A stretch of 64,000 bases of DNA from Bacteroidota bacterium (GTDB lineage Bacteria; Bacteroidota; Bacteroidia; 2-12-FULL-35-15). The translations under genes and the position numbers were made by a program. Positions 11,768-46,307 of the stretch are shown piece after piece. The stretch spans positions 80 to 64,079 of the forward strand of contig JAZKBX010000038.1 of the NCBI GenBank assembly GCA_040388455.1. The letters are read 5' to 3'. Numbering within the stretch: the first letter of the stretch is position 1; each line of letters starts with the position of its first letter. The notes beneath the pieces are model-generated. The model ran no database searches. It saw only the letters and a program-made list of their open reading frames with translations, and was not told the origin of the DNA.

Positions 11768-11802
11768 TTTTATACTTTTAGTGTGTTTATTTATCGTTAG
11801 TC

Positions 11803-17958: not shown

Positions 17959-18019
17959 TAATTTGAATATATCTGAGGCATTAAATGTTTGATGCTATCG
18001 AATCAAAAAACATTAATAT

Positions 18020-22460: not shown

Positions 22461-22472
22461 AGACTTTATTTT

Positions 22473-24644: not shown

Positions 24645-24689
24645 AGCATGCTTTTTTACTTACTTAATACTTTCGATTTACAATAAGTT

Positions 24690-30432: not shown

Positions 30433-30802
30433 TTGCCTCTTTTAACGTTTATAATTTTTGACTATCTTGTTAATACTTTTATTTTTCAATAAAAATAGAT
30501 TTGTCCTTGGTAACAAGTATAGGCAAATATCGAGTCCCATCCACCTATTTTTTCGTATTATTGTTATCCAAAAAAGATTTCGGTATAGTTAAATAATATA
30601 GACAGAACTTATCAATGCTCATTTACCGATAAACAGAAGATAACCATAAAAAAGGGAGTAAAACGATGACAGCCGATTTGCGAAAAATTGCCCAAGGAGG
30701 CAAAGACATTGAATGGTGGGTGTCTCGTAATTTCGGAGATAAAACCTATTTGGATATTAAACAAATGGAAAAAGAAAGATGTTAAGCAATTAGACATATC
30801 AC

Positions 30803-33800
30803 ATGAAAATAATAAACAATCAGGATAAACTTCTTTTTGATGAGGTAAGCTCTAACATCGCTCCAGATTCTGAAGTGTTTATTGCTGTTGAATACGCCAG
30901 CGTATTATCACTTTATGAGTTAATTGCGAAATTTTCAAAAGCAAAATCAATTCAAATTTTAGTTGATAATAAATGTGCTGAAAATGATTTGCGCTTTACC
31001 TATGATGACGCAGAATCAAAGGCATACTTTGATTTAAAAGCAAAGTATAAAGCTGAACAGGTAAGTGAATTATTAAGCACCAAATGCCAGATTAGAGAAG
31101 GAAAAGTGGGGGGACAAAAATTTATTTTAATAAAAAACAAAAATAAAAACATCTGTTACTCAATTGTTCCCAATGATTTAAACCTGGTAACTCTTGGATT
31201 AATAAAATCAAACAATACCATTTACCTGAATGAATTTAGTGATGATGAAAACCAATATCTGAATATCTTTCAGAGTGTTTGGAGTAAAAGCAACAAGGAA
31301 ATTACACAACAAATAATAAATCTTGTTGACAAAGCTCATATTCTAAATTCCCCTGAACTGCTCTACAAGTTTACTTTGAACCACATCTTTCAAAACAAAA
31401 TCATAAACGAAATTTCGGAACAACGTTTGCGCAAAACTGGTTTTAAGGACACTATTGTTTGGGGAATGCTCTACAATTTCCAACAGGATGCGGTTCTGGG
31501 GGCTATAGATAAAATTGAAACATATGGTGGTTGTATAATAGCTGATTCGGTTGGTCTCGGAAAGACATTTGAGGCGTTAGCAATTATGAAGTATTATCAA
31601 TTGCGTAATGACCGCATTCTTGTTCTATGTCCCAAAAAATTACGTGACAATTGGGCTATTTATGGTCAAAATGATGTTCGGAATATTCTTTCGAAAGACC
31701 GTATGAATTTCGATGTGCTCAATCATACTGATTTAACCCGTGAAAGAGGATTTTCTGGTGATATTAATTTGGAAACAGTAAATTGGGGGAACTATGACTT
31801 AATTGTAATTGATGAGTCACATAATTTCCGGAATAATGACCCTCGCAAGGAAACCATCACTCGCTACCAACGCTTGATGAATGATATTATTCAATCTGGT
31901 GTTAAAACAAAAGTATTGATGTTATCAGCTACTCCAGTTAACACAAGAATGAACGATATAAAAAATCAAATTGCTTTTATCACCGAACAAAACGATAAAG
32001 CCTTAAAGCAATATGGGATTTCGAGTATTGAACAAACGTTGCGTAAGGCACAACAAAAGTTTAATCATTGGCTACGGACTAACACCAATGATAATACAAG
32101 CAGAGATACCCTGGTAAACAATTTAAGTGGTGACTATTTTAAATTACTTGATTTACTTACCATTGCCCGTTCAAGAAAACACATTGAGAAATATTATGAT
32201 GTGAGTGATATTGGGAAATTCCCTGTGCGATTAAAACCCATAAGTAAACACTCGGACTTTGATACAGCAGGCTCTTTCCCCGCAATGGACAAAGTAAACA
32301 ATGAGCTGAATGCCTTGAATTTGAAATTCTACTCTCCGCTCTCCTATGTGCGTGATGATAAAAAAGGGAGCTATGAAGAAAAGTATGACACTTTAACATC
32401 TAAAGGAATTTTCAAGCAATCGAATCGGGAAGAAAGTTTAATTCACTTGATGCGGGTGAATCTCCTTAAACGACTTGAAAGTTCTATTCATTCTTTCCGA
32501 TTAACGCTTGAATCTTTGTTGGCGCAAATTGATGATTTACTTTCTAAAGTTGAAAATGCCCAGAGTACAGAATTCTTTAACAGCGACCTGGATATAACCT
32601 CAGTAGATTTTGATGATGACAACCTGGAAGATTTATTGGTTGGTGGGAAGGTAAAAGTATTGCTCCAGGATATAGATTTGATAAAGTGCAAAGAAGATTT
32701 GTTGGATGATAAAAGGCGATTAGAGAATATTCATTCTCAAACACTGGTAGTTGATGCATCAAGGGATGCGAAGTTAAAGGATTTAAAGGAATTGATTTTA
32801 TACAAAATTCAAAACCCATTAAATAAGGATAATAAAAAAGTGGTTGTGTTTTCTGCTTTTGCCGACACAGTAAAATATCTCTATTCGCAGTTAAGCCCTT
32901 GGTTGTATGAGCTGAAATTATATTCTGCACAAGTAACTGGTGGTGATACAAACAAGACTAACATGCCTAACTGTAAGACAGGATTGAGTTCTATTTTAAT
33001 AAACTTTTCCCCTCTTTCTAAAAAAAGAAATGCGGTTTATCCTGATGAAAAAAATCAAATTGATATTTTGTTTTGTACAGATTGTATTTCAGAAGGTCAG
33101 AACTTACAGGATTGTGATTACCTTGTAAATTACGATATACACTGGAATCCAGTTCGTATTATTCAACGCTTTGGACGTATTGACCGAATAGGTTCAGTAA
33201 ATGAAAAAATTCAATTGGTTAACTTTTTCCCTAACCTGGACCTTGACAGCTATATTGATTTGATAGGCCGTGTAAAAGGACGTATGCAAATTCTGGATGT
33301 TTCGGCTACTGGCGACGATAACATCATTGATGAAACCGCAAGTCAGAATCAGGATTTGGATTACAGAAAAAAACAATTGAAACAACTTCAAAATCAAATA
33401 CTTGATTTAGAAGATATTGAAGGTGGTATTTCCATTACAGATTTGACTTTCAATGATTTTAAAATTGATGCAGACCGATTAACAATTGATGAAAAAGAAC
33501 TTTTTGATTTAACACCGAAGGGCATATTTTCTATCACCCCAAATAATTTGAAAGACGGACAACAAGGTGTCATTTTTTGTTTAAAAGAGTTACAAGTCGC
33601 AGAAGAGGATATTTATGCAAATAATGCTATTTACCCTTACGCACTTTGCTATGTAAACGAAAAAGGTGAAGTGTTTATTCCAAGTAATAACCCAAAGCGT
33701 TGCCTTGATTATTTTAAAAAGCTTTCCTTAGGAAAAACGGAAGTTACAAGTAATCTTATTGCTGAGTTTAATAGACAAACTAAAAGTGGCAAGAACATGG

Positions 33801-33958
33801 ACGCTTATGTTTCACTTTTAGATAGTGCAATGAAAAACATCAAAGGTGCTGATGAAGAACTGGGTTTGGACTCACTTGCAACCCCAGGAGGAACAGCAAT
33901 TACTAAGAAAGATATTAATGCTCCTTTTGAAATTGTATCGTTTTTAATTGTTAAATAA
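30803..33958 (+). CDS. SNF2-family helicase with N-terminal degenerate PLD-like region
   Basis: 1051 aa. Motifs ADSVGLGKTFEA, LIVIDESHNFRN, LSATP and helicase-C CISEGQNLQD...WNPVRIIQRFGRIDRIGS. Confidence 0.85.
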   Translation: MKIINNQDKLLFDEVSSNIAPDSEVFIAVEYASVLSLYELIAKFSKAKSIQILVDNKCAENDLRFTYDDAESKAYFDLKAKYKAEQVSELLSTKCQIREGKVGGQKFILIKNKNKNICYSIVPNDLNLVTLGLIKSNNTIYLNEFSDDENQYLNIFQSVWSKSNKEITQQIINLVDKAHILNSPELLYKFTLNHIFQNKIINEISEQRLRKTGFKDTIVWGMLYNFQQDAVLGAIDKIETYGGCIIADSVGLGKTFEALAIMKYYQLRNDRILVLCPKKLRDNWAIYGQNDVRNILSKDRMNFDVLNHTDLTRERGFSGDINLETVNWGNYDLIVIDESHNFRNNDPRKETITRYQRLMNDIIQSGVKTKVLMLSATPVNTRMNDIKNQIAFITEQNDKALKQYGISSIEQTLRKAQQKFNHWLRTNTNDNTSRDTLVNNLSGDYFKLLDLLTIARSRKHIEKYYDVSDIGKFPVRLKPISKHSDFDTAGSFPAMDKVNNELNALNLKFYSPLSYVRDDKKGSYEEKYDTLTSKGIFKQSNREESLIHLMRVNLLKRLESSIHSFRLTLESLLAQIDDLLSKVENAQSTEFFNSDLDITSVDFDDDNLEDLLVGGKVKVLLQDIDLIKCKEDLLDDKRRLENIHSQTLVVDASRDAKLKDLKELILYKIQNPLNKDNKKVVVFSAFADTVKYLYSQLSPWLYELKLYSAQVTGGDTNKTNMPNCKTGLSSILINFSPLSKKRNAVYPDEKNQIDILFCTDCISEGQNLQDCDYLVNYDIHWNPVRIIQRFGRIDRIGSVNEKIQLVNFFPNLDLDSYIDLIGRVKGRMQILDVSATGDDNIIDETASQNQDLDYRKKQLKQLQNQILDLEDIEGGISITDLTFNDFKIDADRLTIDEKELFDLTPKGIFSITPNNLKDGQQGVIFCLKELQVAEEDIYANNAIYPYALCYVNEKGEVFIPSNNPKRCLDYFKKLSLGKTEVTSNLIAEFNRQTKSGKNMDAYVSLLDSAMKNIKGADEELGLDSLATPGGTAITKKDINAPFEIVSFLIVK

Positions 33959-33961
33959 AGG

Positions 33962-34732
33962 GTGGAGAAATTAAATCAAATATTGCAATTGCCTGAAAGA
34001 TGCCTGGTGAGTAAAAAAATTACCAAGACTTTTTTTAAGCGTAATTTTGATTTAACACTTTCTGAAAAGAAACTACTGGAGGACTCATCTGCAATTATAA
34101 AAATTGATTGGCTGTCTTCATTAAAACCTAACCAGGTTAATATTGAAGGTTATACTGATAGCCAAATAATTTTTGAAGAAATTCAGGTAATAAGTGTTTT
34201 AACCAATGAAAACGATTTCGAAAAAAACAAACAGAAAATTATTGACCTGGTTCAGAAATTCATCCCTTATCATATTTTGCTTTGTGTGTATAATGCTAAT
34301 GAGTTTGTGTTAAACACCTGCAATAAGAGGATAAGCCTTAATGATTATAACAAACGTACTATCGAAAAAAGTTTTATTACTGAAACAATTTCAATAATTG
34401 AACCTACAGATAAACAACAGGCATTTTTAACAAGTTTGGCATTTGAGAATTTGGATAAGCACAATTTAAAATCACTATACGATTCATACTCACAATGCAT
34501 AACGGCTCTTCAAACAGCAAAATTAACGGGTGAATTTATCAGGCGACCAATTGAACAAAGTAAACAGGATGTAGGAATTCTTGATAGAATTAATAAATTA
34601 GAGAGCGAAATACTATTGCTCCAGAATCAGGCAAACAAGGAAACGCAATTAAATACGCAGGTAAAAATAAACGCTGAGGTACAGTTTCGTAGAAAAGAAA
34701 TTGAAGGTTTAAAACATAAACTCATTAACTAA
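33962..34732 (+). CDS. DUF4391-like protein
   Basis: 256 aa with a GTG start 3 nt after the SNF2 stop. The pattern ...KKITKTFF...IIKIDWL...FEEIQVISV...KFIPYHILLCVY resembles DUF4391, a family usually found beside SNF2 and methylase genes. Confidence 0.55.
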   Translation: MEKLNQILQLPERCLVSKKITKTFFKRNFDLTLSEKKLLEDSSAIIKIDWLSSLKPNQVNIEGYTDSQIIFEEIQVISVLTNENDFEKNKQKIIDLVQKFIPYHILLCVYNANEFVLNTCNKRISLNDYNKRTIEKSFITETISIIEPTDKQQAFLTSLAFENLDKHNLKSLYDSYSQCITALQTAKLTGEFIRRPIEQSKQDVGILDRINKLESEILLLQNQANKETQLNTQVKINAEVQFRRKEIEGLKHKLIN

Positions 34733-34739
34733 ACACAAA

Positions 34740-36485
34740 ATGAATATAAGCAAAGTACATTTGCAGAACTTACTAAATACAGGAACCAATCAATATGTGA
34801 TTCCTTTTTTTCAACGCCCTTATGTTTGGAAAAAAGAAGATTGTGAAAGCTTGCTAGAAGATATTAACGAAACAGCAGAAAGGAATAAGGGCAATATTAT
34901 TAAAGAGCACTTTATTGGCACAATTATTACCAAATTTAAAGATGATAGTACTCAGATGAAAGCTGAATTTCACTTAGTTGATGGGCAGCAACGAATGACA
35001 ACTTTTTCTTTAGTATTAAAAGCATTAGCTAATTCCGTTGATTTAAGCCAACCGAAAGCAAATTTTCTTGTTGATAGTATAAATAGTTCTTTATCCTATA
35101 AGGATTCTTATGGAGATGAGCATTTCAGAATTGTTCATAATCGAATTGATAAGGAATATTTTTTGAAAGTGATGGGGTCAAATAATGAAACAAAATTTGA
35201 GGAAGCTGAAGGGCTGAATAAAATTATTGACACCTACAAATTTTTTAAAAATAATTTCATAGGTCTTTCTAACGAGGAGATATTGTTTATAAATCAAACT
35301 GTTTTAAACCGATTTCCAGCTATAAGTATGGTTTTAGAAAAACAGGATGATGAGCAAGAAATTTTTGATACAATCAATTCATTAGGGGTTAAATTAACAA
35401 CCTCCGAATTGTTAAAGAATTTTATTTTCAGTGATACAGCAACGCAAAAATTGTATACTTCTTTGTGGGAAGACGTTTTTGAGTCAGATGAAGAGACTAT
35501 CAAATTCTGGAACCTAAAGAAAACAGCAGGAAGGGTATATCGTGAAAATATTGATGTATTGTTATACTGTTATTTACTAATTGAACGTGAAAAAGATGTT
35601 TCCTTAGAACACTTGTTTAGAGATTACAAAGAATGGCTTGTTGGCAAAACCAGTGCTGATAAGAAACTATTTTTAGAAAACTTAAAAGTGTCAGCAGAAA
35701 TATTTTCAAATTTTCCATCTGGTACTGAATTAAACAATTTAAAATTTGATGAAATTGAAAAACGCTTTTTTCATGTTATTGAAAACCTAAACATAACTAC
35801 CATATATCCTTTGGTGCTATATTTATACAAGGAATTAACCAATTCTGTTGATAGACTTAAATGTTTAGAGTACTTAGAAAGTTATTTAGTAAGAAGAAAC
35901 ATATGTAAACTAACGACTAAAAATTACAATAATCTTTTTACGTCAATAGTAAAAAGCATCAAAGCATCAAAAGCTCCAACCATATTTGATGCATTAAAAG
36001 ATACAATACATGGCTATACTGAAGACACGAACCGTTTTCCAACAGATGATGATGTTAAAAATGGTTTTGCTCATTCAACACTTAGTAACCAACATGCGAA
36101 AGAAACGTTATTTATAATTGCGTTGTTTCAGATAAAAACGGTTCTTAATGATGTTACATTGCTTAGCTCCAATAGCTTTTCGGTAGAACATATGATGCCT
36201 AAAGCATGGGTGCAAAACTGGAATGATTCAAAGTTAACTTCAGAAGCAAAATTGCTTAGAAATCATACATTATTAACTTTAGGTAACTTAACAATAATAA
36301 CCAAAAACCTGAATAGCAAATTAAGAAATAGCTCTTGGAAAAACAAGCGTTCTATACTTCAGCAATTTTCTTCATTACCATTAACAACGCAATACACCAT
36401 TTTGGATAATTGGAACGAAGCAACTATTGAAAGTAGAGCATCTACATTACACAATTTGGCAATAAACATTTGGAAAAAATATTAA
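34740..36485 (+). CDS. GmrSD-like DUF262 + DUF1524 protein (type IV restriction-like)
   Basis: 581 aa. DUF262 motifs IPFFQRPYVWKKED and LVDGQQRMTTF. C-terminal His-Me/DUF1524-like FSVEHMMPKAW...LGNLTIITKNLNSKLRN. Confidence 0.8.
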   Translation: MNISKVHLQNLLNTGTNQYVIPFFQRPYVWKKEDCESLLEDINETAERNKGNIIKEHFIGTIITKFKDDSTQMKAEFHLVDGQQRMTTFSLVLKALANSVDLSQPKANFLVDSINSSLSYKDSYGDEHFRIVHNRIDKEYFLKVMGSNNETKFEEAEGLNKIIDTYKFFKNNFIGLSNEEILFINQTVLNRFPAISMVLEKQDDEQEIFDTINSLGVKLTTSELLKNFIFSDTATQKLYTSLWEDVFESDEETIKFWNLKKTAGRVYRENIDVLLYCYLLIEREKDVSLEHLFRDYKEWLVGKTSADKKLFLENLKVSAEIFSNFPSGTELNNLKFDEIEKRFFHVIENLNITTIYPLVLYLYKELTNSVDRLKCLEYLESYLVRRNICKLTTKNYNNLFTSIVKSIKASKAPTIFDALKDTIHGYTEDTNRFPTDDDVKNGFAHSTLSNQHAKETLFIIALFQIKTVLNDVTLLSSNSFSVEHMMPKAWVQNWNDSKLTSEAKLLRNHTLLTLGNLTIITKNLNSKLRNSSWKNKRSILQQFSSLPLTTQYTILDNWNEATIESRASTLHNLAINIWKKY

Positions 36486-36486
36486 T

Positions 36487-38580
36487 ATGGAAAAAATTAC
36501 GAAAGACCATCCACTAAGCAAGAGCGAAGATATTCTGCAAACGAATATTGAAACACTTAAAAAGTTATTCCCAACTATTGTAAAAGAGGGGAAGATTGAC
36601 ATGAAAGAGTTGGAAGCTTTGCTGAGTGATGAAATAGAAACTGCTGATGAATATTACCGTTTTAATTGGGCAGGAAAAAGTGATGCAAGGCGAGAATCAA
36701 ATAAGCCTAGCACAGCTACTTTACGCCCTTGCAAAGAGGAAAGTAAAAATTGGGATAACACGGAAAATGTTTTTATCGAAGGGGATAACTTAGAAGTTTT
36801 AAAACTATTACAAAAGAGTTATTCAAACAAAATTAAATTAATTTATATAGACCCCCCTTACAATAAGGGAAAAGACTTTGTTTATCAGGATAATTACTCT
36901 GATAATTTAAAAAACTATCTCCTAAAGTCTGGCCAAATTAACGAGGAAGGCAATAAAATTAGTACTAATACTGAAAGTGATGGGAGGTTTCATAGCAATT
37001 GGCTAAATATGATTTATCCTCGGTTGAAACTAGCTCGAAATTTGCTTAAAGAGGATGGAGCAATTTTTATTAGCATTGACAATAAAGAAGTTTTTAATCT
37101 TAAGAAGGTATGTGATGAGATATTTGGAGAAGAAAATTTTGTAGAATGTATTGCTTGGAATAAAAGGATTCCCAAAAACGATAAAGGAATTGGAAATATT
37201 CATGAATACATTTTGATTTATGCTCAAAAATTTTCAAGTGATTATGAATTTACAATGAGGAAGGAAGGGCTTGAGGATATTGAGGAATTGGTACAGAAGC
37301 TAAAAAAAAGCAAAACTCCAATTCCTGAAGCAGAAAAGGAAATTAAAATATTGTATAAAAAAAAGGGCTATGATAGAGGAATTACTCTTTACAATAGCTT
37401 AAGTGACGAATATCGCATTTGGGGGAAAATAAATATGAGTTGGCCAAATTCTGACACCTTCGGTCCAAGATATATTGTTTCTCACCCCATTTCAAAGAAG
37501 CCGATGAAAATTCCCCAAAGAGGATGGAGATGGAAAGAAGACACGTTTAAAGAGGCTGCTAAAATTGTAAATGGTACATATAATGAAATTATTGAATTGC
37601 ACGATGGCACTTTTTTATGCGGTCGAATTTGGTTTGATAAAGATGAAAATACACAGCCTAGTTCAATAAATTATTTGGACGAAGTAGATACATTTCTTTT
37701 AAGGTCAATATTGTCCAGTAAGAGTGATGGGGGGATTGAAGTGGAAGAATTGTTTGAAGGGAAAAGTTTTTTTTCTTACCCGAAACCAACCACCTTGATT
37801 CAATTGCTAATTAATTCAATGAAAATGGAGTCTAATGATATTGTTTTAGATTTTTTTGCTGGGTCAGGAACAACTGCAAATGCAGTGATGCAATTAAATT
37901 CGGAAGATGGTCTAAATCGGAAATATATTTGCGTTCAATTTCCAGAACCAACTGATGAAAAAAGCGAAGCACATAAGGCTGGTTTCCTTAATATTTCTGA
38001 AATTACAAAAGAACGTATAAGGAGGTCTGGAAATAAGATTATTTCCTCATTACAGACTAGGCTGAATGAAGATAAAAAGAAAACCGCTTCTCAACTTCAA
38101 TTTGACACCAATAGTCTTTCAAAAAATAATTTAACAACTGAAAGTCTTCTCGAAAAGCTAGATACAGGGTTTAAATCATTTAAATTAGACACAAGTAACA
38201 TCAATGCTTGGGACGGCAGCTTAATCAATTTCGAAAAGAATCTATTAAACTCTGAAACAAATATAAAAATTGACAGAACAGAAGATGACGTTCTATTTGA
38301 AGTTTTGCTCAAATATGGATTAAATCTGACGGTTCCTATTGAGGAAAAAACAATTGCAGGTTGTAAGGTATACAGTGTGGGTTTAGGAGCCTTGTTTGTT
38401 TGCCTTGCAGATAATATTACAACACAGGTAGCTGAGGACATTGGGAAATGGAAAGAAAAATTAAATCCAACCAGTTGTCGTGTATTGTTTAAAGACAATG
38501 GTTTTAAAGATGACGTTGCTAAAACTAATAGCGTTCAGATTCTAAAACGTTTTGCAATTCAAGAAATCAATAGCCTTTAA
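36487..38580 (+). CDS. mod: Type III-like N6-adenine DNA methyltransferase (Mod, beta-class order)
   Basis: 697 aa. Motif IV IYIDPPYNKG precedes motif I DFFAGSGTTANA. Confidence 0.85.
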   Translation: MEKITKDHPLSKSEDILQTNIETLKKLFPTIVKEGKIDMKELEALLSDEIETADEYYRFNWAGKSDARRESNKPSTATLRPCKEESKNWDNTENVFIEGDNLEVLKLLQKSYSNKIKLIYIDPPYNKGKDFVYQDNYSDNLKNYLLKSGQINEEGNKISTNTESDGRFHSNWLNMIYPRLKLARNLLKEDGAIFISIDNKEVFNLKKVCDEIFGEENFVECIAWNKRIPKNDKGIGNIHEYILIYAQKFSSDYEFTMRKEGLEDIEELVQKLKKSKTPIPEAEKEIKILYKKKGYDRGITLYNSLSDEYRIWGKINMSWPNSDTFGPRYIVSHPISKKPMKIPQRGWRWKEDTFKEAAKIVNGTYNEIIELHDGTFLCGRIWFDKDENTQPSSINYLDEVDTFLLRSILSSKSDGGIEVEELFEGKSFFSYPKPTTLIQLLINSMKMESNDIVLDFFAGSGTTANAVMQLNSEDGLNRKYICVQFPEPTDEKSEAHKAGFLNISEITKERIRRSGNKIISSLQTRLNEDKKKTASQLQFDTNSLSKNNLTTESLLEKLDTGFKSFKLDTSNINAWDGSLINFEKNLLNSETNIKIDRTEDDVLFEVLLKYGLNLTVPIEEKTIAGCKVYSVGLGALFVCLADNITTQVAEDIGKWKEKLNPTSCRVLFKDNGFKDDVAKTNSVQILKRFAIQEINSL

Positions 38581-38590
38581 TTTTGTAAGT

Positions 38591-41500
38591 ATGGAAATTA
38601 AATTTGAAAAAGGCCTGGATTATCAAAGGGATGCTATCAATAGTGTTGTAGATATATTCGGAGGTCAAGAGATATGTAAAAGTAATTTTACGGTTTACTC
38701 GCCTGAGTATCTTGCTAAGCAAACCAACCTGGTAATGAACGATATTGGTTTTGCCAATAAGCTTCAACTAACTGAAGACCAAATTCTAGAAAATGTTCAA
38801 AAGATTCAACTTCATAATGGTTTGAAGCCTTCTATTTCTGACGAAATTGATAAGAGTCATTACGATTTCAGTATTGAAATGGAAACGGGTACAGGAAAAA
38901 CGTATGTGTATTTACGCTCCATCATGGAGATGAATCGGAAGTATGGGTTTACAAAATTCATCATTGTAGTTCCTTCTATTCCAATTAAAGAAGGAGTTTA
39001 TAAAACTTTAGAAATCACAAAAAAACATTTTCAGGAAAATTATGATGGGATAGATTATAGTTTTTTTATTTACGATAGTTCTCGCTTAAATGAAATCCGA
39101 GATTTTGCAATCAATGATAAATTGCAAATTATGGTAATCAATATTCAGGCATTCAATAAAGACCTTGAAGCTGGAACAAAAAAAGCCTCTCGTATTTTAT
39201 TAGATTATAATGATAAGTTAGGATATACGCCTATTTCATTAATACAAAATACAAGGCCAGTTGTAATTGTTGATGAACCACAAAGTACCATCAGCACGGA
39301 TTTAGCAATGCGGTCAGTTAAAAACCTGAACCCACTTACATTATTACGTTATTCTGCTACTCATAAAGACAAAGTGAATCTTATGTACAAGTTGGATGCA
39401 GTTGATGCTTACAACAAACAATTGGTAAAGCAAATTGAAGTAGCCTCAGTTAAGGTAGAAAACTCAGCAGTAAGCTCAGCATACATCCGTTTGTTATCTG
39501 TAAAAAACAAAAATGGTATTTCAGCAAAAATAGAATTGGATGTAAAAGATAAGGAGGGAAAAGCAAAAAGAATTACAAAAGAGGTAACGCAAAATAAGGA
39601 TTTGCTTCAGCTTTCAAAGCTCCCACAGTATGCTGACTACTTCATTAAGAATATATACTCAGGCGAAGGAAATGAGTACATCGAATTAGGAGATGATACC
39701 ATTTTGAAAATTGGAGAAGCAATTGGCTCAGTTGATGAGAGTGCTATTAAGCGGATGCAGATTAGCAAAACAATTGAAGAACACCTTGACAAAGAACTTA
39801 TATTAAATCCAAAAGGATTAAAGGTGTTGAGTTTGTTTTTCATTGATGCAGTAAAGCATTATCGTGTTTATGATGATGAAGGACATGCAACGAATGGTGA
39901 TTATGCAAAAATGTTTGAAGAGGAATACAAAAAACATATTAAGAAGCCGAAATACAAAACATTGTTTGAAGGAATAAAAGATATAAATACTGAAGCTTCA
40001 GATGTCCACAACGGTTATTTTTCAATGGATAAAAAAACCAAGAAGAGTAACTCAAAAGAAAAATTTGAAGTCTTTAAAGACACGAGTGGTTCTGTGGGAG
40101 CAGATGAAGACACCTACAGTTTGATAATGCGAGATAAAGAGAAATTATTAAGCTTTGAATCTAAACTTCGTTTCATCTTTTCGCATTCAGCATTAAAGGA
40201 AGGATGGGATAATCCTAATGTATTTCAGATATGTACATTGAAAGAGGCTGGTAATTCAGAAACACGCAGAAGGCAGGAAATTGGTCGAGGCTTACGTTTG
40301 GCAGTGAATCAACAAGGAGAAAGAGTTTATGGTTTTGAAACCAACAAACTCACAGTAATGGCAAGCGAATCGTATGAAGACTTTGTTGATGGATTACAAA
40401 AAGAAATTGAAAAAGAAACAGGGATTACTTTTGGTCAGTTACAATCACACGGGTTTAACAACGTGGTGGTTCAAATGATAAACAATGAACCTGTTTTCCT
40501 AGGTCAGGAGAAATCAGAAGAACTTTATAATTACTTACTGCTTAAACAATATATTGATGCAAAGGGTAAGGTACAAAACCTTTTAAGAGATGATTTAAAA
40601 GCTGGCACTGTTGATTTAGGACAGGAGTTTGAAGCACATGTTGCCAGCCAGATAATTGAAACCCTTAAACAAACAGCAGGTAAACTTGAAATTAAGCGTA
40701 ATGAAGAAAAGAAAACAGTTAAAGTAAAAGAAGCAGTTTTAGATGACCCTGAATTTAAAATGCTCTGGGACCGCATTAAATACAAAACTACCTATTCTGT
40801 TCAGTTCGACTCTCAAAAGCTCATAGAAGCTTGTATAAAGCATATCAATGACCGTTTAATTGTAAGCAGTGGCAAACTTATTTACAACAAAGTTGACCTA
40901 CAACTTACCAAGGGAGGTTTAATAGCCTCAGAACCAAAAAATGAGTACGGAAGAGTAAACCAGGAAGTAAGCGTATTACCTGACATTGTAAGCTACCTTC
41001 AAAATGAAACTCAATTAACCAGAAAGTCGATTGTAAAAATTCTTCAGGGGTGTACAAACATAAATTATTTCAAAATAAATCCGCAAAAATTTATTGAAGG
41101 ATGTATTGATATTATAAACGAGCAAATGCGTTTGCACATCGTGGATGGAATTGTTTACAGGAAAATCGGAGACAACATTTTTCACAGCCAGGAACTTTTC
41201 AAAACTGAAGAGCTTACTGGTTACTTGAAATCAAATATGATGGCAAGCACCAAATCTCCTTATGAGTATGTAGTTTTCGATAGCGGAATTGAATCTGAAC
41301 TTGCTAAAGAGTTTGAGAAAAACACAAATGTAAAAGTGTATGCGAAGCTACCAAGATGGTTTACAATTGAAACCCCGCTTGGTAATTACAACCCAGATTG
41401 GGCAGTTTTATTTGAACTCGATGGTGAAGAACAATTATTCTTTGTAGTCGAAAGTAAAGGTTCAATGGGCTATGAATTCCTACGACCATCTGAGCAAGGT

Positions 41501-41617
41501 AAAATTGATTGTGGTAAAGCTCACTTTAAAGAGCTTGCCAAAGAAAGTAAGAGTAATGTGAAATTGGTTTACATCAGCACTATGGATGATTTTACTAATA
41601 TTGCGATGGGGGCCTAA
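38591..41617 (+). CDS. res: Type III restriction enzyme Res subunit (DEAD-like helicase + PD-ExK nuclease)
   Basis: Start taken at MEIKFEKGLDYQRDAINSVVDIFGG, a typical Res N-terminus. Motifs ETGTGKT and VIVDEPQS, plus C-terminal YNPDWAVLF...FFVVESKG. Confidence 0.85.
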   Translation: MEIKFEKGLDYQRDAINSVVDIFGGQEICKSNFTVYSPEYLAKQTNLVMNDIGFANKLQLTEDQILENVQKIQLHNGLKPSISDEIDKSHYDFSIEMETGTGKTYVYLRSIMEMNRKYGFTKFIIVVPSIPIKEGVYKTLEITKKHFQENYDGIDYSFFIYDSSRLNEIRDFAINDKLQIMVINIQAFNKDLEAGTKKASRILLDYNDKLGYTPISLIQNTRPVVIVDEPQSTISTDLAMRSVKNLNPLTLLRYSATHKDKVNLMYKLDAVDAYNKQLVKQIEVASVKVENSAVSSAYIRLLSVKNKNGISAKIELDVKDKEGKAKRITKEVTQNKDLLQLSKLPQYADYFIKNIYSGEGNEYIELGDDTILKIGEAIGSVDESAIKRMQISKTIEEHLDKELILNPKGLKVLSLFFIDAVKHYRVYDDEGHATNGDYAKMFEEEYKKHIKKPKYKTLFEGIKDINTEASDVHNGYFSMDKKTKKSNSKEKFEVFKDTSGSVGADEDTYSLIMRDKEKLLSFESKLRFIFSHSALKEGWDNPNVFQICTLKEAGNSETRRRQEIGRGLRLAVNQQGERVYGFETNKLTVMASESYEDFVDGLQKEIEKETGITFGQLQSHGFNNVVVQMINNEPVFLGQEKSEELYNYLLLKQYIDAKGKVQNLLRDDLKAGTVDLGQEFEAHVASQIIETLKQTAGKLEIKRNEEKKTVKVKEAVLDDPEFKMLWDRIKYKTTYSVQFDSQKLIEACIKHINDRLIVSSGKLIYNKVDLQLTKGGLIASEPKNEYGRVNQEVSVLPDIVSYLQNETQLTRKSIVKILQGCTNINYFKINPQKFIEGCIDIINEQMRLHIVDGIVYRKIGDNIFHSQELFKTEELTGYLKSNMMASTKSPYEYVVFDSGIESELAKEFEKNTNVKVYAKLPRWFTIETPLGNYNPDWAVLFELDGEEQLFFVVESKGSMGYEFLRPSEQGKIDCGKAHFKELAKESKSNVKLVYISTMDDFTNIAMGA

Positions 41618-41636
41618 TTAATTTAATTTATAAAAA

Positions 41637-42632
41637 ATGAAAAGACTACTACAGATAAATTTCAGGAACGTAATTAATCAAGCGGTGATTGAGGCCTGGA
41701 GAAGAGTTCCGAGTGGCCCACATGAACCAGATTTTATTGCAAGTCTTGTATTATCTGGCACTCCAGGTTTTCACAACGCAATTATTGCCACCTCTGGTAT
41801 CTGGAGCAAAGTTAATACTGTTGGAGTCTTTTGTCACCAGTCGCCAATGGTAAAGTACATGGATGGAGTAACAGAAAGAAGATGTGAGTTAGGCGATGTT
41901 CTTTGGTGTCATTTTCATACCAATAAAGAGGGCGATACTTTTCGAAATGCTATTCTTTTTCAGTCTAAAATGTCTGCCACTTTGACTCCTGCAATCCACT
42001 ACAATGATACACAACTTAAACTGTATCGTGAATGGCCTCAGTACGAATATTGTCGTTCAGGATCCTTGAATGGTCAAGTCAGAAATCTATTACCTAAACA
42101 GCCTCATGCTGGTGCGCAATATATGTTTATTGATAATAGCCCCATAACAAATCCGAGTTTGGGTGTGCAAAATTTAAATCCGTATACTACATTTCCAATT
42201 GGAACAACAACCATTTCTCCACTACTTCTCGGTAATACTCCTTTGGAATTAGAATTAGTCCGATTCTTGTTTTTGGGCAGTGGACGGTCTTTTGATTCTT
42301 ACCGCAACAGAAATGCATCTGATGAATGGACCAAAATTATTTGGGACTTGTTAAGAAATGGAATGAGCCGTGCATTTAATCGCAGAAGAGCGGGATTCAA
42401 TAATTCACCAAGAATAAGTCGTTACAAAAGCAGTATGGATGGCATGTTAACTTTTACTGGTTCATCTGATGACATAAGCTCTGGACTTGATGGTGAGTTC
42501 TACAATGAATATAAAGATTTATTTTCTTCGGATGATGGAGGGAACAAAGAAAACAATTATACACCAGAAGATAAAGAAGGTGGAGGGGCTCCTTCGATAA
42601 TTATTTTCAGAACAAATGAAAGTAAGGGATAA
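41637..42632 (+). CDS. Hypothetical protein, possible degenerate PD-(D/E)xK-like core, disordered C-terminus
   Basis: 331 aa, starting 19 nt after the res stop on the same strand. No family recognised. Contains the segment CELGDVLWCHFH...NAILFQSKM. The tail is rich in G/S/D/N. Confidence 0.6.
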   Translation: MKRLLQINFRNVINQAVIEAWRRVPSGPHEPDFIASLVLSGTPGFHNAIIATSGIWSKVNTVGVFCHQSPMVKYMDGVTERRCELGDVLWCHFHTNKEGDTFRNAILFQSKMSATLTPAIHYNDTQLKLYREWPQYEYCRSGSLNGQVRNLLPKQPHAGAQYMFIDNSPITNPSLGVQNLNPYTTFPIGTTTISPLLLGNTPLELELVRFLFLGSGRSFDSYRNRNASDEWTKIIWDLLRNGMSRAFNRRRAGFNNSPRISRYKSSMDGMLTFTGSSDDISSGLDGEFYNEYKDLFSSDDGGNKENNYTPEDKEGGGAPSIIIFRTNESKG

Positions 42633-42752: not shown

Positions 42753-44384
42753 ATGCCATTAAGAAAAACATCTATATATAAATACTTGGAACCTGATTAC
42801 AGATACAAAGAAAAATATTGGCCAATTCTCACTGACTTTGTTAAAAAAAAATATGGTGATTCAGAAATTACATCACTAGTTGCGGTTCAGGAAACTCTAA
42901 AAGAGTGCTTTTCGATACTTTGTAAAGAATTTATTGTAGTACTTAAAAAAGAAAAAAGAGCTTCATTTTTCATATTTGTTCAAGACCTTCATGAGGACTC
43001 TATTGACATGTGGCGAGCACAACTTAACGGAGATAAATTTCCAATAAACCAAGAAGACTTCGCGGCTACAAGAAGAATTATGAAATATATTCTTGAACAG
43101 GGGTGTGGTTTGGATTTGATCGGCCATGATTTCTTTTTTAAAGAAATAAATGAACAGATTGAACCTTACACTAAACATCTCGAAGAGCTTGTTTATATAG
43201 GAACTTGGGCGTTTACGATAAGTGAGTATATTGCTCGTAGCCAAATTTGCAATCATTCCGTAAGTTTGAAAGTAGAAAACAATGAGTTTGTAATTAATGT
43301 GAAGCCCCCCTTCAATTCTCTTTTTAGCTTCATATTTGCAGACAACCAACGACACAATAAAGCAGTAGTAGTATCAAATTCAATTATTGAACTGAAGAAA
43401 ATACTGAACGATGATTTGAAAACTAATTATGATTATTTGTGTGGAGCTGTTTTTGGTCAGCTTCAAGATAAAAAATTCAGATTTTCAATATTTAAACTCG
43501 ATGAGCTGATTAAAGAATTAATAAAAAAGCATGGATACTCAAAAGATGTAGTGGAAATTTTTTATTCTGGATTGATGGTTAATAAAAACAATGTACTTAG
43601 TATTGAGGATTGCATATTGAAAACCCAAGATAGCAGGCGGTATATGTACAGACCGATATTAGAATATACTATTGACGAAAAAACCTTTTGGATAATCGGA
43701 GCAAATAAATGGTCCGAAAGTTTGACTGCACTGACAACTAATTGTATCCCTTTTGGTCAATTTCCTGATGAATGGAAACAATTGATTCCAATATGTGATT
43801 TCTGTAATAGAATAATGAACACCCATGACGTAGTGCTTGAAGAACCAGCTATCGAAATAATTAAGAATGTTAATTTTAAATTTGACAGAAATATAAAGTC
43901 GTTAAAAAAGACCAATAATCAAGGTGTTAGCATAATAAAAAAAAACGTTGGTGAAATTGACCTCGTTTTTATAGATGAAAAAAACAAGTTGATTTATGTT
44001 GCCGAATGTAAGCACAATAAATCCAGATTTGAATACAATAACTGGAAAAGGGACATCTCAAATTTCAGGTCTAAGTATGAAAGCCAATTGAGCAATAAAT
44101 TTAACTGGATTTCCAATAATAAACTTCCCTTGCTCGAACATTTTGAAATTTTATACGCCTGCAAAATTGAAAGTCAGGAGAATTACAATGTGATTCCTCT
44201 TTTTATTATTAATGCTCCAACACTATATATGTATGACAGCGAATATCTGGTCGTAACCTTACACGATTTAGAATTACTTTTAAGTGGCAAACATGTTACC
44301 CATGAATTTAATGGGGAAATAAATGGGAAAAAAGTAAATATTAAAAAACCATATTTACAAAATGCAGAAAAGCTTTTTATTTAA
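42753..44384 (+). CDS. Hypothetical protein with C-terminal PD-(D/E)xK (NERD-like) nuclease motif
   Basis: 543 aa. The roughly 340 N-terminal residues match nothing I recognise. The C-terminal part carries GEIDLVFIDEKNKLIYVAECKHNK (D...ExK). Confidence 0.6.
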   Translation: MPLRKTSIYKYLEPDYRYKEKYWPILTDFVKKKYGDSEITSLVAVQETLKECFSILCKEFIVVLKKEKRASFFIFVQDLHEDSIDMWRAQLNGDKFPINQEDFAATRRIMKYILEQGCGLDLIGHDFFFKEINEQIEPYTKHLEELVYIGTWAFTISEYIARSQICNHSVSLKVENNEFVINVKPPFNSLFSFIFADNQRHNKAVVVSNSIIELKKILNDDLKTNYDYLCGAVFGQLQDKKFRFSIFKLDELIKELIKKHGYSKDVVEIFYSGLMVNKNNVLSIEDCILKTQDSRRYMYRPILEYTIDEKTFWIIGANKWSESLTALTTNCIPFGQFPDEWKQLIPICDFCNRIMNTHDVVLEEPAIEIIKNVNFKFDRNIKSLKKTNNQGVSIIKKNVGEIDLVFIDEKNKLIYVAECKHNKSRFEYNNWKRDISNFRSKYESQLSNKFNWISNNKLPLLEHFEILYACKIESQENYNVIPLFIINAPTLYMYDSEYLVVTLHDLELLLSGKHVTHEFNGEINGKKVNIKKPYLQNAEKLFI

Positions 44385-45961: not shown

Positions 45962-46307
45962 TTAGATGATTGACCGATAAGTCACTAGCGAACCGCTCGC
46001 CTCATTATGCTCTTCATCTTTTGCACCATACACTAATGTTACTATTCCCTTCTTCATCTTTCCCTTCAAAAACGACACCTGCTCTTCGTTCTCTTTAAGT
46101 TCTTGGTGATAACATTTCTTGAACTCTTGCCATTTATTGGGGTCGTGCCCAAACCCTTCTCGAAGCATTGTACTGGGCGCAATATCCTTTAACCTTAAAT
46201 CAACACTAGCCTTTTCTTTTGTCAGACCTCTTGGCCCAGAGCCTGTCCACGAGAATACGCATGCCATCTCCTTTATCCGGCTTTTCATACACTCTTTTGA
46301 TTTTCAT
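45962..46307 (-). pseudogene. DUF488 (YeaO-like) gene interrupted by a 1-nt frameshift
   Basis: From the ATG at 46307 the minus strand reads MKIKRVYEKPDKGDGMRILVDRLW, then goes out of frame. The track ORF frame continues ...GPRGLTKEKASVDLRLKDIAPS...VTLVYGAKDEEHN. Deleting one G in ctctgggcc (about 46233-46238) restores the canonical RILVDRLWPRGL. Confidence 0.75.

What the first reader, a model, noticed from the sequence alone, without database searches (positions are those of the whole stretch)
30803..42632. Six-gene operon: SNF2 helicase, DUF4391, GmrSD-like, type III Mod, Res, unknown
- **Seen in sequence:** intergenic gaps are 3, 7, 1, 10 and 19 nt, so the genes are almost certainly one transcript.
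- **Core:** Mod (DPPY before FxGxG) and Res (helicase plus C-terminal PD...ESK) form a type III-like core.
- **Accessory genes:** the core is preceded by a 1051-aa SNF2 ATPase whose N-terminus looks like a PLD fold that has lost its HxK motif, and by a DUF4391-like protein. As far as I know, the SNF2+DUF4391 pairing next to methylases recurs in genomes but has no assigned mechanism.
- **Classification:** it lacks the DISARM (DUF1998) and BREX (PglZ) markers, so it fits neither.
Basis: partly seen in the sequence, partly recalled or inferred. Interest (0 to 1): 0.6.

Follow-up and report, generated by a model that had tools for sequence, protein, structure and literature searches.

The report
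Type III restriction system with SNF2–DUF4391
This is a real, tightly packed defence operon whose conserved heart is four genes (an SNF2 motor with a dead nuclease domain, the unknown protein DUF4391, and a type III methylase and restriction enzyme). This quartet is widespread on plasmids and genomic islands of bacteria and archaea, yet nobody has described what the two extra proteins do.

Summary

- **Conserved unit.** The conserved unit is four genes, not six: SNF2 – DUF4391 – type III Mod – Res. Apart from the window, 37 loci carrying DUF4391 were examined. The SNF2 gene lay upstream in all 36 that could be judged, and the Mod gene lay downstream in all 36 that could be judged. These loci span Bacteroidota, Proteobacteria, Firmicutes and two archaea.
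- **SNF2 N-terminus.** It is homologous to a PLD nuclease domain (hhalign 99.2%), but the catalytic His is replaced by Gly.
- **DUF4391.** It folds confidently (pLDDT 94) into an α/β domain plus a helical hairpin. No match was found in PDB or BFVD.
- **GmrSD.** It is an optional type IV nuclease nested in the operon. Other loci carry HipA, Septu-like, OLD or Schlafen-like genes in the same slots.
- **ORF6.** It is a rare, lineage-specific add-on that also occurs in an unrelated defence island.
- **Naming.** No PADLOC model matches DUF4391, and no paper in the library describes this system. The closest named systems are DISARM class 1, ARMADA, the BREX-related ("BR") type 2 system and Hma.

Verdict: a new variant of restriction-modification-like defence, with the mechanism of SNF2–DUF4391 unknown. 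Interest 0.62.

The parts
30803..33958 (+). SNF2-family ATPase, 1051 aa. It has an N-terminal inactivated PLD-like domain (about aa 1-215), an SNF2 core (aa ~220-830) and an uncharacterised C-terminal region.
   Evidence: Pfam and PADLOC hits. ATPase motifs I, II, III and VI are intact. RapA is the best PDB relative. Homologues are 60-75% identical in Bacteroidota and 39-52% identical on plasmids of other phyla.
30803..31447 (+). Inactivated PLD (HKD) domain of the SNF2 protein.
   Evidence: None of 9 family members gives a Pfam PLDc hit, and no HxK is conserved in 14 sequences. The profile nevertheless aligns with PLDc_2-bearing HKD-SNF2 N-termini: L034 at 99.2% (E 5.8e-20) and L033 at 92%. 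The catalytic His aligns with Gly, and GSxN aligns with VPND.
33962..34732 (+). DUF4391 protein, 256 aa, GTG start. It has an α/β N-domain plus three long C-terminal helices, and a conserved K-E-x-Q-x-N motif sits at the hairpin tip.
   Evidence: PF14335 3.7e-45. AF2 gave pLDDT 94 and pTM 0.89. Foldseek found nothing at E<=0.001 in PDB or BFVD, and there is no PDB sequence relative. There are 1553 cluster representatives at E<=1e-3. Family-wide conserved residues are P11, K22, E73, I101-P102-Y103, K122, F155, Y173 and N237.
34740..36485 (+). GmrSD-family type IV (modification-dependent) endonuclease, 581 aa, nested between DUF4391 and Mod.
   Evidence: GmrSD_N plus GmrSD_C, and PADLOC mREase_IV 2.8e-50. 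The DGQQR motif at 81 and EHxxP...GNL at 483-517 are intact. Among Bacteroidota loci it occupies this slot only in L008 and L009. In L017 and L035 a GmrSD-like gene sits between Mod and Res instead.
36487..38580 (+). Type III Mod, a β-class N6-adenine DNA methyltransferase of 697 aa.
   Evidence: N6_N4_Mtase, PADLOC MTase_III 3.2e-203 and EcoP15I Mod 1.6e-69. DPPY precedes FxGxG.
38591..41617 (+). Type III-like Res, 1008 aa: an SF2 ATPase plus a C-terminal PD-(D/E)xK endonuclease.
   Evidence: ResIII plus RE_endonuc, PADLOC REase_III E=0 and EcoP15I Res 1.1e-59 over aa 57-609. It belongs to a clade that PGAP labels only 'DEAD/DEAH box helicase family protein'. Canonical Res proteins align at about 30% identity over only the first 60%.
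41637..42632 (+). ORF6, 331 aa, from a rare uncharacterised family. It is probably a nuclease-like protein, and it is a lineage-specific neighbour rather than part of the conserved core.
   Evidence: It has only 20 homologues among 5.8 billion clusters. It follows Res in the closest relatives, but it also lies in an unrelated MmeI/Thoeris-like island. Invariant residues are E30, D32, H67, E84, G86, D87, Q109 and K111. AF2 gave pLDDT 77, and Foldseek found no hit.

Best explanation
The locus encodes a four-component, type III-derived restriction-modification system (SNF2 with a dead PLD domain, DUF4391, Mod and Res). A GmrSD type IV nuclease has been inserted into it, and an unrelated rare gene (ORF6) follows it.

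Shown by sequence:
- Mod is an EcoP15I-like β-class adenine methylase.
- Res is an EcoP15I-like SF2 ATPase with an intact PD...ExK nuclease.
- SNF2 has all its ATPase motifs, but its PLD domain lacks the catalytic His.
- DUF4391 has no recognisable catalytic motif.

Inferred:
- A Mod dimer reads a short asymmetric site and methylates host DNA, and Res cuts DNA whose sites are unmethylated.
- SNF2 and DUF4391 form a second ATP-driven dsDNA-translocating (remodeller-type) sub-complex that works with Mod and Res on unmodified DNA. DUF4391 would act as the fast-evolving adaptor or sensor, through its conserved helical-hairpin tip. The dead PLD domain would act as a DNA-binding or dimerisation module left over from an ancestral HKD-SNF2 restriction subunit.
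- The motor would add true translocation or roadblock removal to a type III enzyme that otherwise only slides. This would broaden what can be restricted.
- GmrSD covers phages whose hypermodified DNA escapes Mod/Res.
For: **Linkage.** Apart from the window, 37 loci carrying DUF4391 were examined. SNF2 lay upstream in all 36 evaluable loci and a type III Mod lay downstream in all 36. Res or a remnant of it was present wherever the contig reached far enough. The hosts are Bacteroidota, Gamma- and Alphaproteobacteria, Desulfobacteria, Bacilli, Methanobacteriaceae and Methanosarcinaceae.

**Co-divergence.** Pairwise-identity correlations are SNF2-Res ρ 0.79 (0.98 within Bacteroidota), SNF2-DUF4391 0.82 and DUF4391-Res 0.77. 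Mod is decoupled (0.41-0.47).

**Linkage survives insertions.** Foreign cassettes inserted between SNF2|DUF4391, DUF4391|Mod and Mod|Res do not break the quartet.

**No effector of its own.** The SNF2-DUF4391 pair has no active effector, so it needs Res, or something else, to act.

**Active relatives.** HKD-SNF2 relatives with an intact PLD domain sit next to methylases as apparent restriction subunits (L034; BR type 2 in PMC12839542).

**Parallel in named systems.** An SNF2 gene immediately 5' of the methylase is also the arrangement in DISARM class 1 (10.1101/2021.12.28.474362), in ARMADA type II and in part of type I (10.1101/2025.09.15.676423). In ARMADA the SNF2 Walker motifs are essential.

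**DISARM link.** B. cereus plasmids fuse DrmA and DrmB directly to this quartet.

**Independent recruitment.** An unrelated SNF2 without a PLD domain and without DUF4391 has been recruited to the same Mod/Res clade in Rhizobium.
Against: - Two-gene Mod-Res pairs of the same Res clade exist without SNF2 or DUF4391 (S. epidermidis and L. crispatus). Full-length hits on plasmids number 145 records for Res against 108 for SNF2. Basic restriction therefore probably does not need the extra pair.
- No physical interaction, transcript or phenotype data exist.
- The DUF4391 fold matches nothing known, so its role is a guess.
- Co-divergence of genes in one operon can reflect shared history alone.
- The specific benefit proposed (translocation or roadblock removal) is an inference from what SNF2 enzymes do in general.
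Confidence: 0.55

Rival explanations
1. SNF2-DUF4391 is a safety or regulatory module rather than part of the attack. It would control when Res may cut. For example, it could displace Mod/Res from host DNA when sites are transiently unmethylated (restriction alleviation). Alternatively, it could delay restriction when the mobile element enters a new host.
For: The system is overwhelmingly carried on plasmids, transposons and islands that must establish in naive hosts. Two-gene versions exist, so the pair is not needed for cutting. SNF2 enzymes such as RapA strip proteins from DNA (one search shows homology only).
Against: Many loci already carry a small HTH, WYL or RHH regulator upstream, which is the usual solution for establishment control. 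A 1051-aa motor plus a fast-evolving partner is an expensive regulator. Rapid DUF4391 divergence (mean 32% identity against 54% for SNF2 and Res) fits an arms race better than housekeeping control.
Confidence: 0.2
2. DUF4391 is a sensor or decoy for phage anti-restriction proteins. When a phage inhibitor attacks Mod/Res, DUF4391 would detect it and license SNF2, and perhaps the nested effectors such as GmrSD, HipA, OLD or Septu-like genes, as a second line of defence. This would be analogous to PrrC guarded by the EcoprrI type I enzyme.
For: DUF4391 is the fastest-evolving component. It has a conserved hairpin tip but variable surfaces. Toxin- and nuclease-type cassettes are repeatedly nested inside the operon next to it: GmrSD, HTH+HipA, AAA_15+HNH, OLD+DUF2130 and Schlafen-like genes.
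Against: Most loci have no nested cassette at all (for example L001, L004, L015, L019, L025, L031, L040, L043). The inserts differ in position and type, which looks like a permissive insertion hotspot, as reported for Hma (PMC11232893). No phage trigger is known.
Confidence: 0.15
3. SNF2-DUF4391 is an independent two-gene defence system that merely travels with a type III RM system in defence islands.
For: It occupies the 5' end of the operon. Mod-Res pairs can exist alone. Defence genes cluster for reasons other than shared mechanism (searches show that the window is a large defence island).
Against: In 36 of 36 loci the pair was never found without the Mod gene (see best explanation). The order is fixed across phyla and archaea. 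Neither protein has an active effector domain. PADLOC has no model matching DUF4391.
Confidence: 0.08

Closest known systems
Canonical type III restriction-modification (EcoP15I, EcoP1I: Mod2Res1-2)
   Same: Mod and Res are clear homologues (4ZCF_A 1.6e-69, 4ZCF_C 1.1e-59). They share the same motif order, the same Mod-then-Res gene order and an intact PD...ExK nuclease.
   Different: Canonical systems have two genes. Here an SNF2 motor and DUF4391 are fixed upstream. Res belongs to a separate clade: canonical Res aligns at about 30% identity over only the first 60%. It falls below the NCBIfam type III cutoff (340 bits against 564), and PGAP names it only as a DEAD/DEAH helicase.
DISARM class 1 (DrmD SNF2 + DrmMI + DrmA/B/C)
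   Same: An SNF2 helicase gene lies immediately 5' of an adenine methylase inside an RM-like defence operon. DrmD is the best-scoring named NCBIfam model for the window's SNF2 (1.9e-45). B. cereus plasmids place DrmA and DUF1998 directly upstream of the same quartet.
   Different: The window has no DrmA, DrmB (DUF1998) or DrmC. The DrmD score of 156 bits is far below the cutoff of 610. DrmMI is a PF13659-type methylase, not a type III Mod. DISARM has no DUF4391 and no Res (10.1101/2021.12.28.474362).
BREX-related 'BR' type 2 system (DUF499 ATPase + N6-MTase + HKD-Swi2/Snf2 + DUF3780) and two-gene HKD-SNF2 + methylase pairs
   Same: The helicase architecture is the same, with an N-terminal PLD/HKD domain fused to Swi2/Snf2, and a small protein of unknown fold sits beside it. 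The best PADLOC hit is the 'HKD+Snf2' profile (1.8e-116) (PMC12839542; L034).
   Different: In those systems the HKD is catalytically intact and is proposed to be the effector. Here it is dead, and Res supplies the nuclease. There is no DUF499 and no DUF3780, and the methylase class differs.
ARMADA and BREX type 3 (BrxHII-like SNF2 + PglX-like methylase)
   Same: The functional pair is SNF2 plus methylase. In ARMADA the ArmA Walker motifs are required for defence (10.1101/2025.09.15.676423; PMC13463889).
   Different: Those systems need a YprA/DUF1998 helicase (ARMADA) or PglZ/BrxC (BREX), and none of these is present here. Their SNF2 proteins carry a Tudor N-terminus, not a PLD domain, and they have no DUF4391.
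Hma (HmaA SNF2-nuclease, HmaB methylase, HmaC ATPase)
   Same: It is an SNF2-plus-methylase operon that serves as an insertion hotspot for other defence genes (PMC11232893). This is the behaviour seen here at three junctions.
   Different: HmaA carries an active C-terminal NOV_C nuclease, HmaB is an m5C methylase, and there is no Res or DUF4391. The PADLOC HmaA hit is weak (1.2e-21, helicase core only).
GmrSD/BrxU type IV enzymes embedded in BREX or RM loci
   Same: A DUF262 + DUF1524 nuclease with intact DGQQR and HNH-like motifs lies inside a methylation-based system, giving cover against modified and unmodified DNA alike.
   Different: Here it sits in the middle of a type III-like operon with gaps of 7 and 1 nt, and it is optional across relatives.

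Membership tests
Type III restriction-modification system | Mod: β-class N6-adenine methylase with motif IV (DPPY) before motif I (FxGxG), homologous to EcoP1/EcoP15I Mod | tested here: met
   DPPY at residue 122 and FAGSG at 457; PF01555 6.9e-34; PADLOC MTase_III 3.2e-203; 4ZCF_A 1.6e-69.
Type III restriction-modification system | Res: SF2 helicase-like ATPase with a C-terminal PD-(D/E)xK endonuclease, encoded directly after mod | tested here: met
   GTGKT, DEPQ and motif VI are present, with PD at 935 and ESK at 954. ResIII plus RE_endonuc. 4ZCF_C 1.1e-59. The gap to mod is 10 nt. It is below the NCBIfam equivalog cutoff (340 against 564 bits), so it belongs to a divergent clade.
Type III restriction-modification system | Two-gene system (mod, res) sufficient by itself | tested here: not met
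   The window and 36/36 relatives carrying DUF4391 have SNF2 and DUF4391 fixed upstream. Two-gene relatives of the same Res clade do exist.
Type III restriction-modification system | Hemimethylation of an asymmetric 5-6 bp site, with ATP-dependent cleavage needing two inversely oriented unmethylated sites | not testable with these tools
   This needs methylome sequencing and cleavage assays.
DISARM | Core triplet DrmA (helicase), DrmB (DUF1998) and DrmC (PLD) | tested here: not met
   There is no DUF1998 and no active PLD gene in the operon. SNF2 scores 156 bits against the DrmD cutoff of 610. DrmA and DrmB adjoin the quartet only in B. cereus plasmids.
BREX | PglZ phosphatase, BrxC ATPase and PglX methylase | tested here: not met
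   No PglZ, BrxC or PglX hits for any of the eight proteins. Only helicase-core similarity to BrxHI/BrxHII was found.
BR type 2 / HKD-SNF2 systems | Catalytically intact HKD motif in the helicase, plus a DUF499 ATPase and DUF3780 | tested here: not met
   His aligns with Gly and GSxN is degenerate. No HxK....D is present. No DUF499 or DUF3780 hit.
GmrSD type IV restriction enzymes | N-terminal DUF262 with DGQQR and C-terminal DUF1524 HNH-like nuclease | tested here: met
   GmrSD_N 2.6e-36 and GmrSD_C 7.6e-19. DGQQR at 81, and EHMMP...GNL at 483-517. Specificity for modified DNA was not testable.
PD-(D/E)xK nucleases (for ORF6) | αβββαβ core carrying D...(D/E/Q)xK | tested here: inconclusive
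   Invariant D87 and Q109-x-K111 lie on adjacent predicted strands. Foldseek found no PDB match, and there is no Pfam, PADLOC or NCBIfam hit.

The most novel reading that the evidence does not exclude
SNF2-DUF4391 turns a sliding type III enzyme into a new kind of four-subunit restriction machine. A remodeller-type motor, targeted by a protein of novel fold (DUF4391), would actively translocate DNA or strip proteins from it. Res could then cut substrates that classical type III enzymes cannot, such as single or same-orientation sites, protein-coated DNA or inhibitor-bound DNA. The operon would also act as a guarded scaffold that licenses nested toxins and nucleases when the RM complex is attacked.
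Probability: 0.25. Interest if true: 0.8.

Novelty: new variant of a known kind. Interest (0 to 1): 0.62.

Why it matters
Type III enzymes are textbook two-subunit machines. A widespread four-gene version would add a new class to restriction-modification biology. The measures of its spread are:
- 1553 DUF4391 sequence clusters;
- at least 108 plasmid records with a full-length SNF2 match, and at least 145 with a full-length Res match;
- hosts including Enterococcus faecium, Listeria monocytogenes, Bacillus cereus, E. coli, Vibrio and archaea.

The finding would also give a function to a DUF family whose confidently predicted fold matches nothing known. It would help explain why an SNF2 motor sits in front of the methylase in DISARM and ARMADA, where the role of the motor is still unclear.

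These loci are currently annotated, and counted in defensome surveys, as plain type III RM or as generic helicases. Their contribution to barriers against plasmids and phages in clinical and food bacteria is therefore probably misjudged.

Native E. coli plasmid copies exist (10 of 5426 complete genomes), so the question can be tested directly.

Tried and rejected
- **Fold identification of DUF4391.** Foldseek against PDB and BFVD gave nothing at E<=0.001, with TM below 0.3. A profile search of PDB sequences gave only chance-level hits. A PD-(D/E)xK reading was considered and dropped. No Asp is conserved family-wide; the only conserved charged residues are K22, E73 and K122.
- **Pfam test of the PLD idea.** No PLDc hit appeared in 9 family members even at E<=1, and a PDB profile search was negative. 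The question was settled only by profile comparison with distant PLDc_2-bearing relatives.
- **DUF4391 as a specificity partner of Mod.** This was rejected because DUF4391 divergence does not track Mod (ρ 0.41 overall, 0.13 in Bacteroidota), whereas it tracks SNF2 and Res.
- **A conserved small controller gene upstream of SNF2 in the window.** The 39-aa ORF at 30666-30785 has no counterpart in other loci. HTH, WYL or RHH genes occur upstream in only some loci.
- **Phase-variable repeats in mod, or inverted repeats flanking the cassette.** None were found.
- **Transcript evidence.** Only metagenome DNA runs hold the sequence.
- **Second homologue search with a cross-phylum alignment.** It returned the same Bacteroidota clade because only the top 120 hits are listed.
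- **ORF6 fold search.** It gave no hit.
- **Literature.** Searches for DUF4391, PF14335, SNF2 plus type III, and ARMADA/DISARM/BR found no description of this quartet. The 'DUF4391' in the Goslar preprint appears to be a slip for DUF7941.

Full report

Yes. Six ORFs on the + strand occupy 30803-33958, 33962-34732, 34740-36485, 36487-38580, 38591-41617 and 41637-42632. The gaps are 3, 7, 1, 10 and 19 nt. The Res start is taken as the ATG at 38591; an in-frame TTG at 38552 would overlap Mod. The next gene, ORF7, follows after 120 nt.

ORFs of 256-1051 aa in DNA of about 33% GC cannot be accidental. Base skews flip at about 30 kb, where gene orientation flips. Co-transcription is likely from the spacing, but it could not be tested. 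Only metagenome DNA runs (watershed, groundwater, sediment) hold the sequence, and the consensus promoter and terminator scans did no better than shuffled sequence.

**2. What each gene is**

- **SNF2.** It hits Helicase_C, SNF2-rel_dom and ResIII, and its best PADLOC profile is 'HKD+Snf2' (1.8e-116). Motifs I, II, III and VI are intact.
- **DUF4391.** PF14335, 3.7e-45.
- **GmrSD.** GmrSD_N plus GmrSD_C, with the DGQQR and HNH-like motifs intact.
- **Mod.** A β-class methylase (DPPY at 122, FAGSG at 457) homologous to EcoP15I Mod (1.6e-69).
- **Res.** Homologous to EcoP15I Res over aa 57-609 (1.1e-59). It carries the RE_endonuc domain with PD at 935 and ESK at 954.
- **ORF6.** No hit in Pfam, PADLOC or NCBIfam.

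**3. The dead PLD domain**

Pfam sees no PLD domain in the window protein or in eight homologues. No HxK is conserved among 14 family members.

More distant SNF2 relatives on cyanobacterial plasmids do carry Pfam PLDc_2 at their N-termini (L033 aa 107-195, L034 aa 85-171). The family profile of the N-terminal ~215 residues aligns with L034 at 99.2% probability (E 5.8e-20) and with L033 at 92%.

In that alignment the L034 motif 'cHaKcylf ... GSSNLT' falls on the window's 'GGQKFILI ... VPNDLN'. The His is replaced by Gly and GSxN is degenerate. A structural test was not possible, because homologues from loci could not be given to the structure predictor.

**4. The conserved unit is a quartet**

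A scan of one genome per species found 16 loci, 15 from Bacteroidota and one from a Methanobacteriaceae archaeon. Every one had SNF2-DUF4391-Mod(-Res) in the same order.

A tblastn search of DUF4391 against plasmids found 40 records. Ten neighbourhoods were inspected: Acinetobacter, B. cereus, Providencia, Acetobacter, Shewanella, Vibrio, Desulforapulum, Methanomethylovorans, E. faecium and L. sakei. All show the same order: 'helicase-related protein' – DUF4391 – 'site-specific DNA-methyltransferase' – 'DEAD/DEAH box helicase family protein'.

The SNF2 protein finds 108 plasmid records at full length. These include an E. coli, a Listeria, an Enterobacter, a Leuconostoc and a Photobacterium lineage with more divergent DUF4391 proteins and the same order. 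Five metagenome contigs agree.

Overall:
- SNF2 lies upstream in 36 of 36 evaluable loci. In two of them one extra gene intervenes.
- Mod lies downstream in 36 of 36 evaluable loci.
- Res or a remnant is present wherever the contig extends. It is split by an IS element in Acetobacter and truncated in Desulforapulum.

DUF4391 has 1553 cluster representatives at E<=1e-3, nearly all of them stand-alone proteins of about 250 aa.

**5. Co-divergence**

This analysis used 14 loci in which all four genes are full length.

| Protein | Mean pairwise identity |
|---|---|
| SNF2 | 54% |
| Res | 54% |
| Mod | 48% |
| DUF4391 | 32% |

| Pair | Correlation of pairwise identities (ρ) |
|---|---|
| SNF2-Res | 0.79 (0.98 within Bacteroidota) |
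| SNF2-DUF4391 | 0.82 |
| DUF4391-Res | 0.77 |
| Mod with any partner | 0.41-0.47 (0.13-0.19 within Bacteroidota) |

SNF2, DUF4391 and Res are therefore inherited as a block. Mod is reshuffled, as expected if its target-recognition domain is exchanged. DUF4391 is the fastest-evolving part and does not track Mod.

**6. Relation to plain type III systems**

Res finds 145 full-length plasmid matches at 32-53% identity, all named only as DEAD/DEAH helicases. Proteins annotated 'type III restriction-modification system endonuclease' align at about 30% identity over only the first 60%. This is a distinct Res clade.

Within it, two-gene Mod-Res pairs without SNF2 or DUF4391 exist in S. epidermidis and L. 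crispatus. A Rhizobium plasmid has recruited a different SNF2, with no PLD-like N-terminus and no DUF4391, in front of Mod – DUF262/HNH – Res.

Mod-Res is therefore probably a self-sufficient RM core, and an SNF2 motor has been added to it more than once. The dead PLD domain and DUF4391 occur together in the main family and are both absent from the single Rhizobium variant. That is a weak hint that the two interact.

**7. DUF4391 structure**

AlphaFold2, run with 60 homologues, gave pLDDT 94 and pTM 0.89. The model has an α/β domain (strands 15-19, 47-54, 74-80, 104-110, 114-124 and 132-139) followed by helices 169-189, 197-226 and 230-255.

Foldseek found nothing at E<=0.001 in PDB or in BFVD. 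Across 163 diverse members the conserved residues are P11, K22, E73, I101-P102-Y103, K122, F155, Y173 and N237. A K-E-x-Q-x-N motif sits at the turn between the last two helices and is conserved across phyla.

No nuclease-type signature is conserved. An adaptor or sensor role is the most economical reading, but this is inference.

**8. GmrSD and other nested genes**

GmrSD occupies the DUF4391|Mod junction only in the window and in two Flavobacterium loci. Other loci carry different cassettes:

| Junction | Nested genes | Locus |
|---|---|---|
| DUF4391/Mod | HTH + HipA | contig carrying ORF6 homologue P0141 |
| DUF4391/Mod | OLD-type endonuclease + DUF2130 | L044 |
| DUF4391/Mod | unknown 246-aa protein | L024 |
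| Mod/Res | GmrSD-like genes | L017, L035 |
| Mod/Res | AAA_15 ATPase + HNH (Septu-like) | L008, L009 |
| Mod/Res | AAA_15 ATPase + 176-aa protein | L013 |
| Mod/Res | DUF4062 + Schlafen/AlbA_2-HATPase_c_4 | L012 |
| Mod/Res | Schlafen/AlbA_2-HATPase_c_4 | L042 |
| SNF2/DUF4391 | homologous 343-aa and 354-aa unknown proteins | L041, L042 |

The operon is thus a recurrent landing site for other defence genes, as reported for Hma (PMC11232893). GmrSD is best read as an independent type IV enzyme that complements Mod/Res against modified DNA.

**9. ORF6**

ORF6 has only 20 homologues. It follows Res in the closest relatives. A 58%-identical copy, however, lies between an MmeI-like RM/helicase/T5orf172 block and a ThsB-TIR/SIR2 cluster, and a 34%-identical copy lies in a non-defence context.

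The invariant residues E30, D32, H67, E84-G86-D87 and Q109-x-K111 lie on predicted strands and suggest a PD-(D/E)xK-like nuclease. Foldseek gave no match. ORF6 is not part of the conserved system.

**10. Comparison with known systems**

PADLOC has no model that matches DUF4391. NCBIfam's best SNF2 match, DrmD, is far below its cutoff. The literature library holds no paper on DUF4391's role or on this quartet. A lactococcal defensome study that deposited one such plasmid treats type III systems as pairs of an R and an M gene.

The nearest named relatives are:
- DISARM class 1;
- ARMADA and BREX type 3;
- BR type 2, which has an active HKD-SNF2;
- Hma.

All four have an SNF2 helicase together with a methylase. 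None has DUF4391 or type III Mod/Res. B. cereus plasmids join DrmA and DrmB directly to the quartet, with no DrmC annotated.

**11. Mechanism and verdict**

*Best-supported reading (0.55).* This is a type III-derived RM system with an integral second motor. Mod marks self DNA, Res cuts, and SNF2-DUF4391 supplies ATP-driven translocation or remodelling. The dead PLD domain is a relic of an ancestral HKD-SNF2 restriction subunit.

*Rivals.*
- a safety or establishment module (0.2);
- a sensor of anti-restriction proteins that licenses nested effectors (0.15);
- an independent co-travelling system (0.08).

The finding is a new variant of a known kind. It is widespread, consistently organised and undescribed, and it includes one protein of unknown fold. 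It is directly testable with native E. coli plasmid copies, which occur in 10 of 5426 complete genomes.

**12. Context**

The window from about 8 to 45 kb is a defence island. It holds Wadjet-like, Gabija-like, OLD and SbcCD-like genes upstream. Downstream lie a further nuclease-like ORF7 and a metallophosphatase.

Noticed in passing
window 9845-29689 (- strand): A large defence island lies upstream. It contains an AAA_15 ATPase (9845-11767). A Wadjet-like set follows: JetD_C 11803-12768, a 1052-aa protein 12768-15926, MksE/JetB 15926-16591 and a 469-aa protein 16549-17958. Next comes a Gabija-like pair (UvrD helicase 18612-20456 and OLD AAA_15+TOPRIM 20457-22460). After it lie a second OLD nuclease (22473-24644) and SbcC/SbcD-like genes (24690-29689).
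   Followed up: partly
window 42753-44384 (+): ORF7 (543 aa) has no family hit, but it carries IDLVFID...YVAECK at aa 403-420, a PD-(D/E)xK-like motif. It is probably another defence nuclease and is not conserved next to the quartet in other loci.
   Followed up: partly
window 44423-45334 (+): A metallophosphoesterase resembling the phosphatase domains of Pnkp, PrpE and ApaH (all below the curated cutoffs). Its role in the island is unknown.
   Followed up: no
L028-L030 (ORF6 homologue at L028:8105-9100): A 58%-identical ORF6 homologue sits 8 nt upstream of two ThsB-TIR genes, an 8xMP gene and a SIR2_2 gene. It lies downstream of an MmeI-like enzyme, a helicase and a T5orf172 protein. ORF6 may therefore be a partner or sensor of variable downstream modules.
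   Followed up: partly
L018 / L039 (B. cereus plasmid NZ_AP022916.1, 28632-42365): DrmA and a DUF1998 protein (DrmB) lie directly upstream of SNF2-DUF4391-Mod-Res, with no DrmC annotated. This is a DISARM/type III hybrid, and the same SNF2 and DUF4391 matches recur in about 15 B. cereus plasmids.
   Followed up: partly
L017 (Acinetobacter gerneri plasmid): The quartet, with a frameshifted GmrSD-like gene between Mod and Res, lies immediately after TnsA, a Mu-type transposase, TniB and TniQ genes. It is therefore probably cargo of a Tn7-like transposon.
   Followed up: no
L041:7977-9008 and L042:7944-9008: Homologous unknown proteins of 343 and 354 aa (41% identical) are inserted between SNF2 and DUF4391 and overlap the DUF4391 start by 8 nt. 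A 241-aa protein after Res in L040 shares a weak 'HPYL...GSFP' similarity with them.
   Followed up: partly
L035 (Rhizobium plasmid p7): A variant with a different SNF2 (949 aa, no PLD-like N-terminus), no DUF4391, a DUF262+HNH gene between Mod and Res, and an HTH gene upstream. It shows independent recruitment of an SNF2 motor to the same Mod/Res clade.
   Followed up: partly
upstream of SNF2 in L002, L019, L021-L023, L025, L026, L036, L041, L044, L046: Small regulators of different folds (Xre-type HTH, excisionase/MerR-like HTH, WYL, RelB/DinJ-like) often sit just before, or overlapping, the SNF2 start. The window has none. It has only an unconserved 39-aa ORF at 30666-30785, and a LuxR-type response regulator 370 nt upstream (29800-30432).
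   Followed up: partly
window 45962-46288 (-): A DUF488 protein lies next to the island (its best match is the 'inactive N3' subclade). Further downstream are a GTP cyclohydrolase I gene and an oxidoreductase gene.
   Followed up: no
literature (10.64898/2026.04.21.720040): The Goslar phage preprint calls PhiKZ gp127 a 'DUF4391 protein' in a passage that is otherwise about DUF7941. This looks like a slip and not a real link between DUF4391 and phage baseplates.
   Followed up: no
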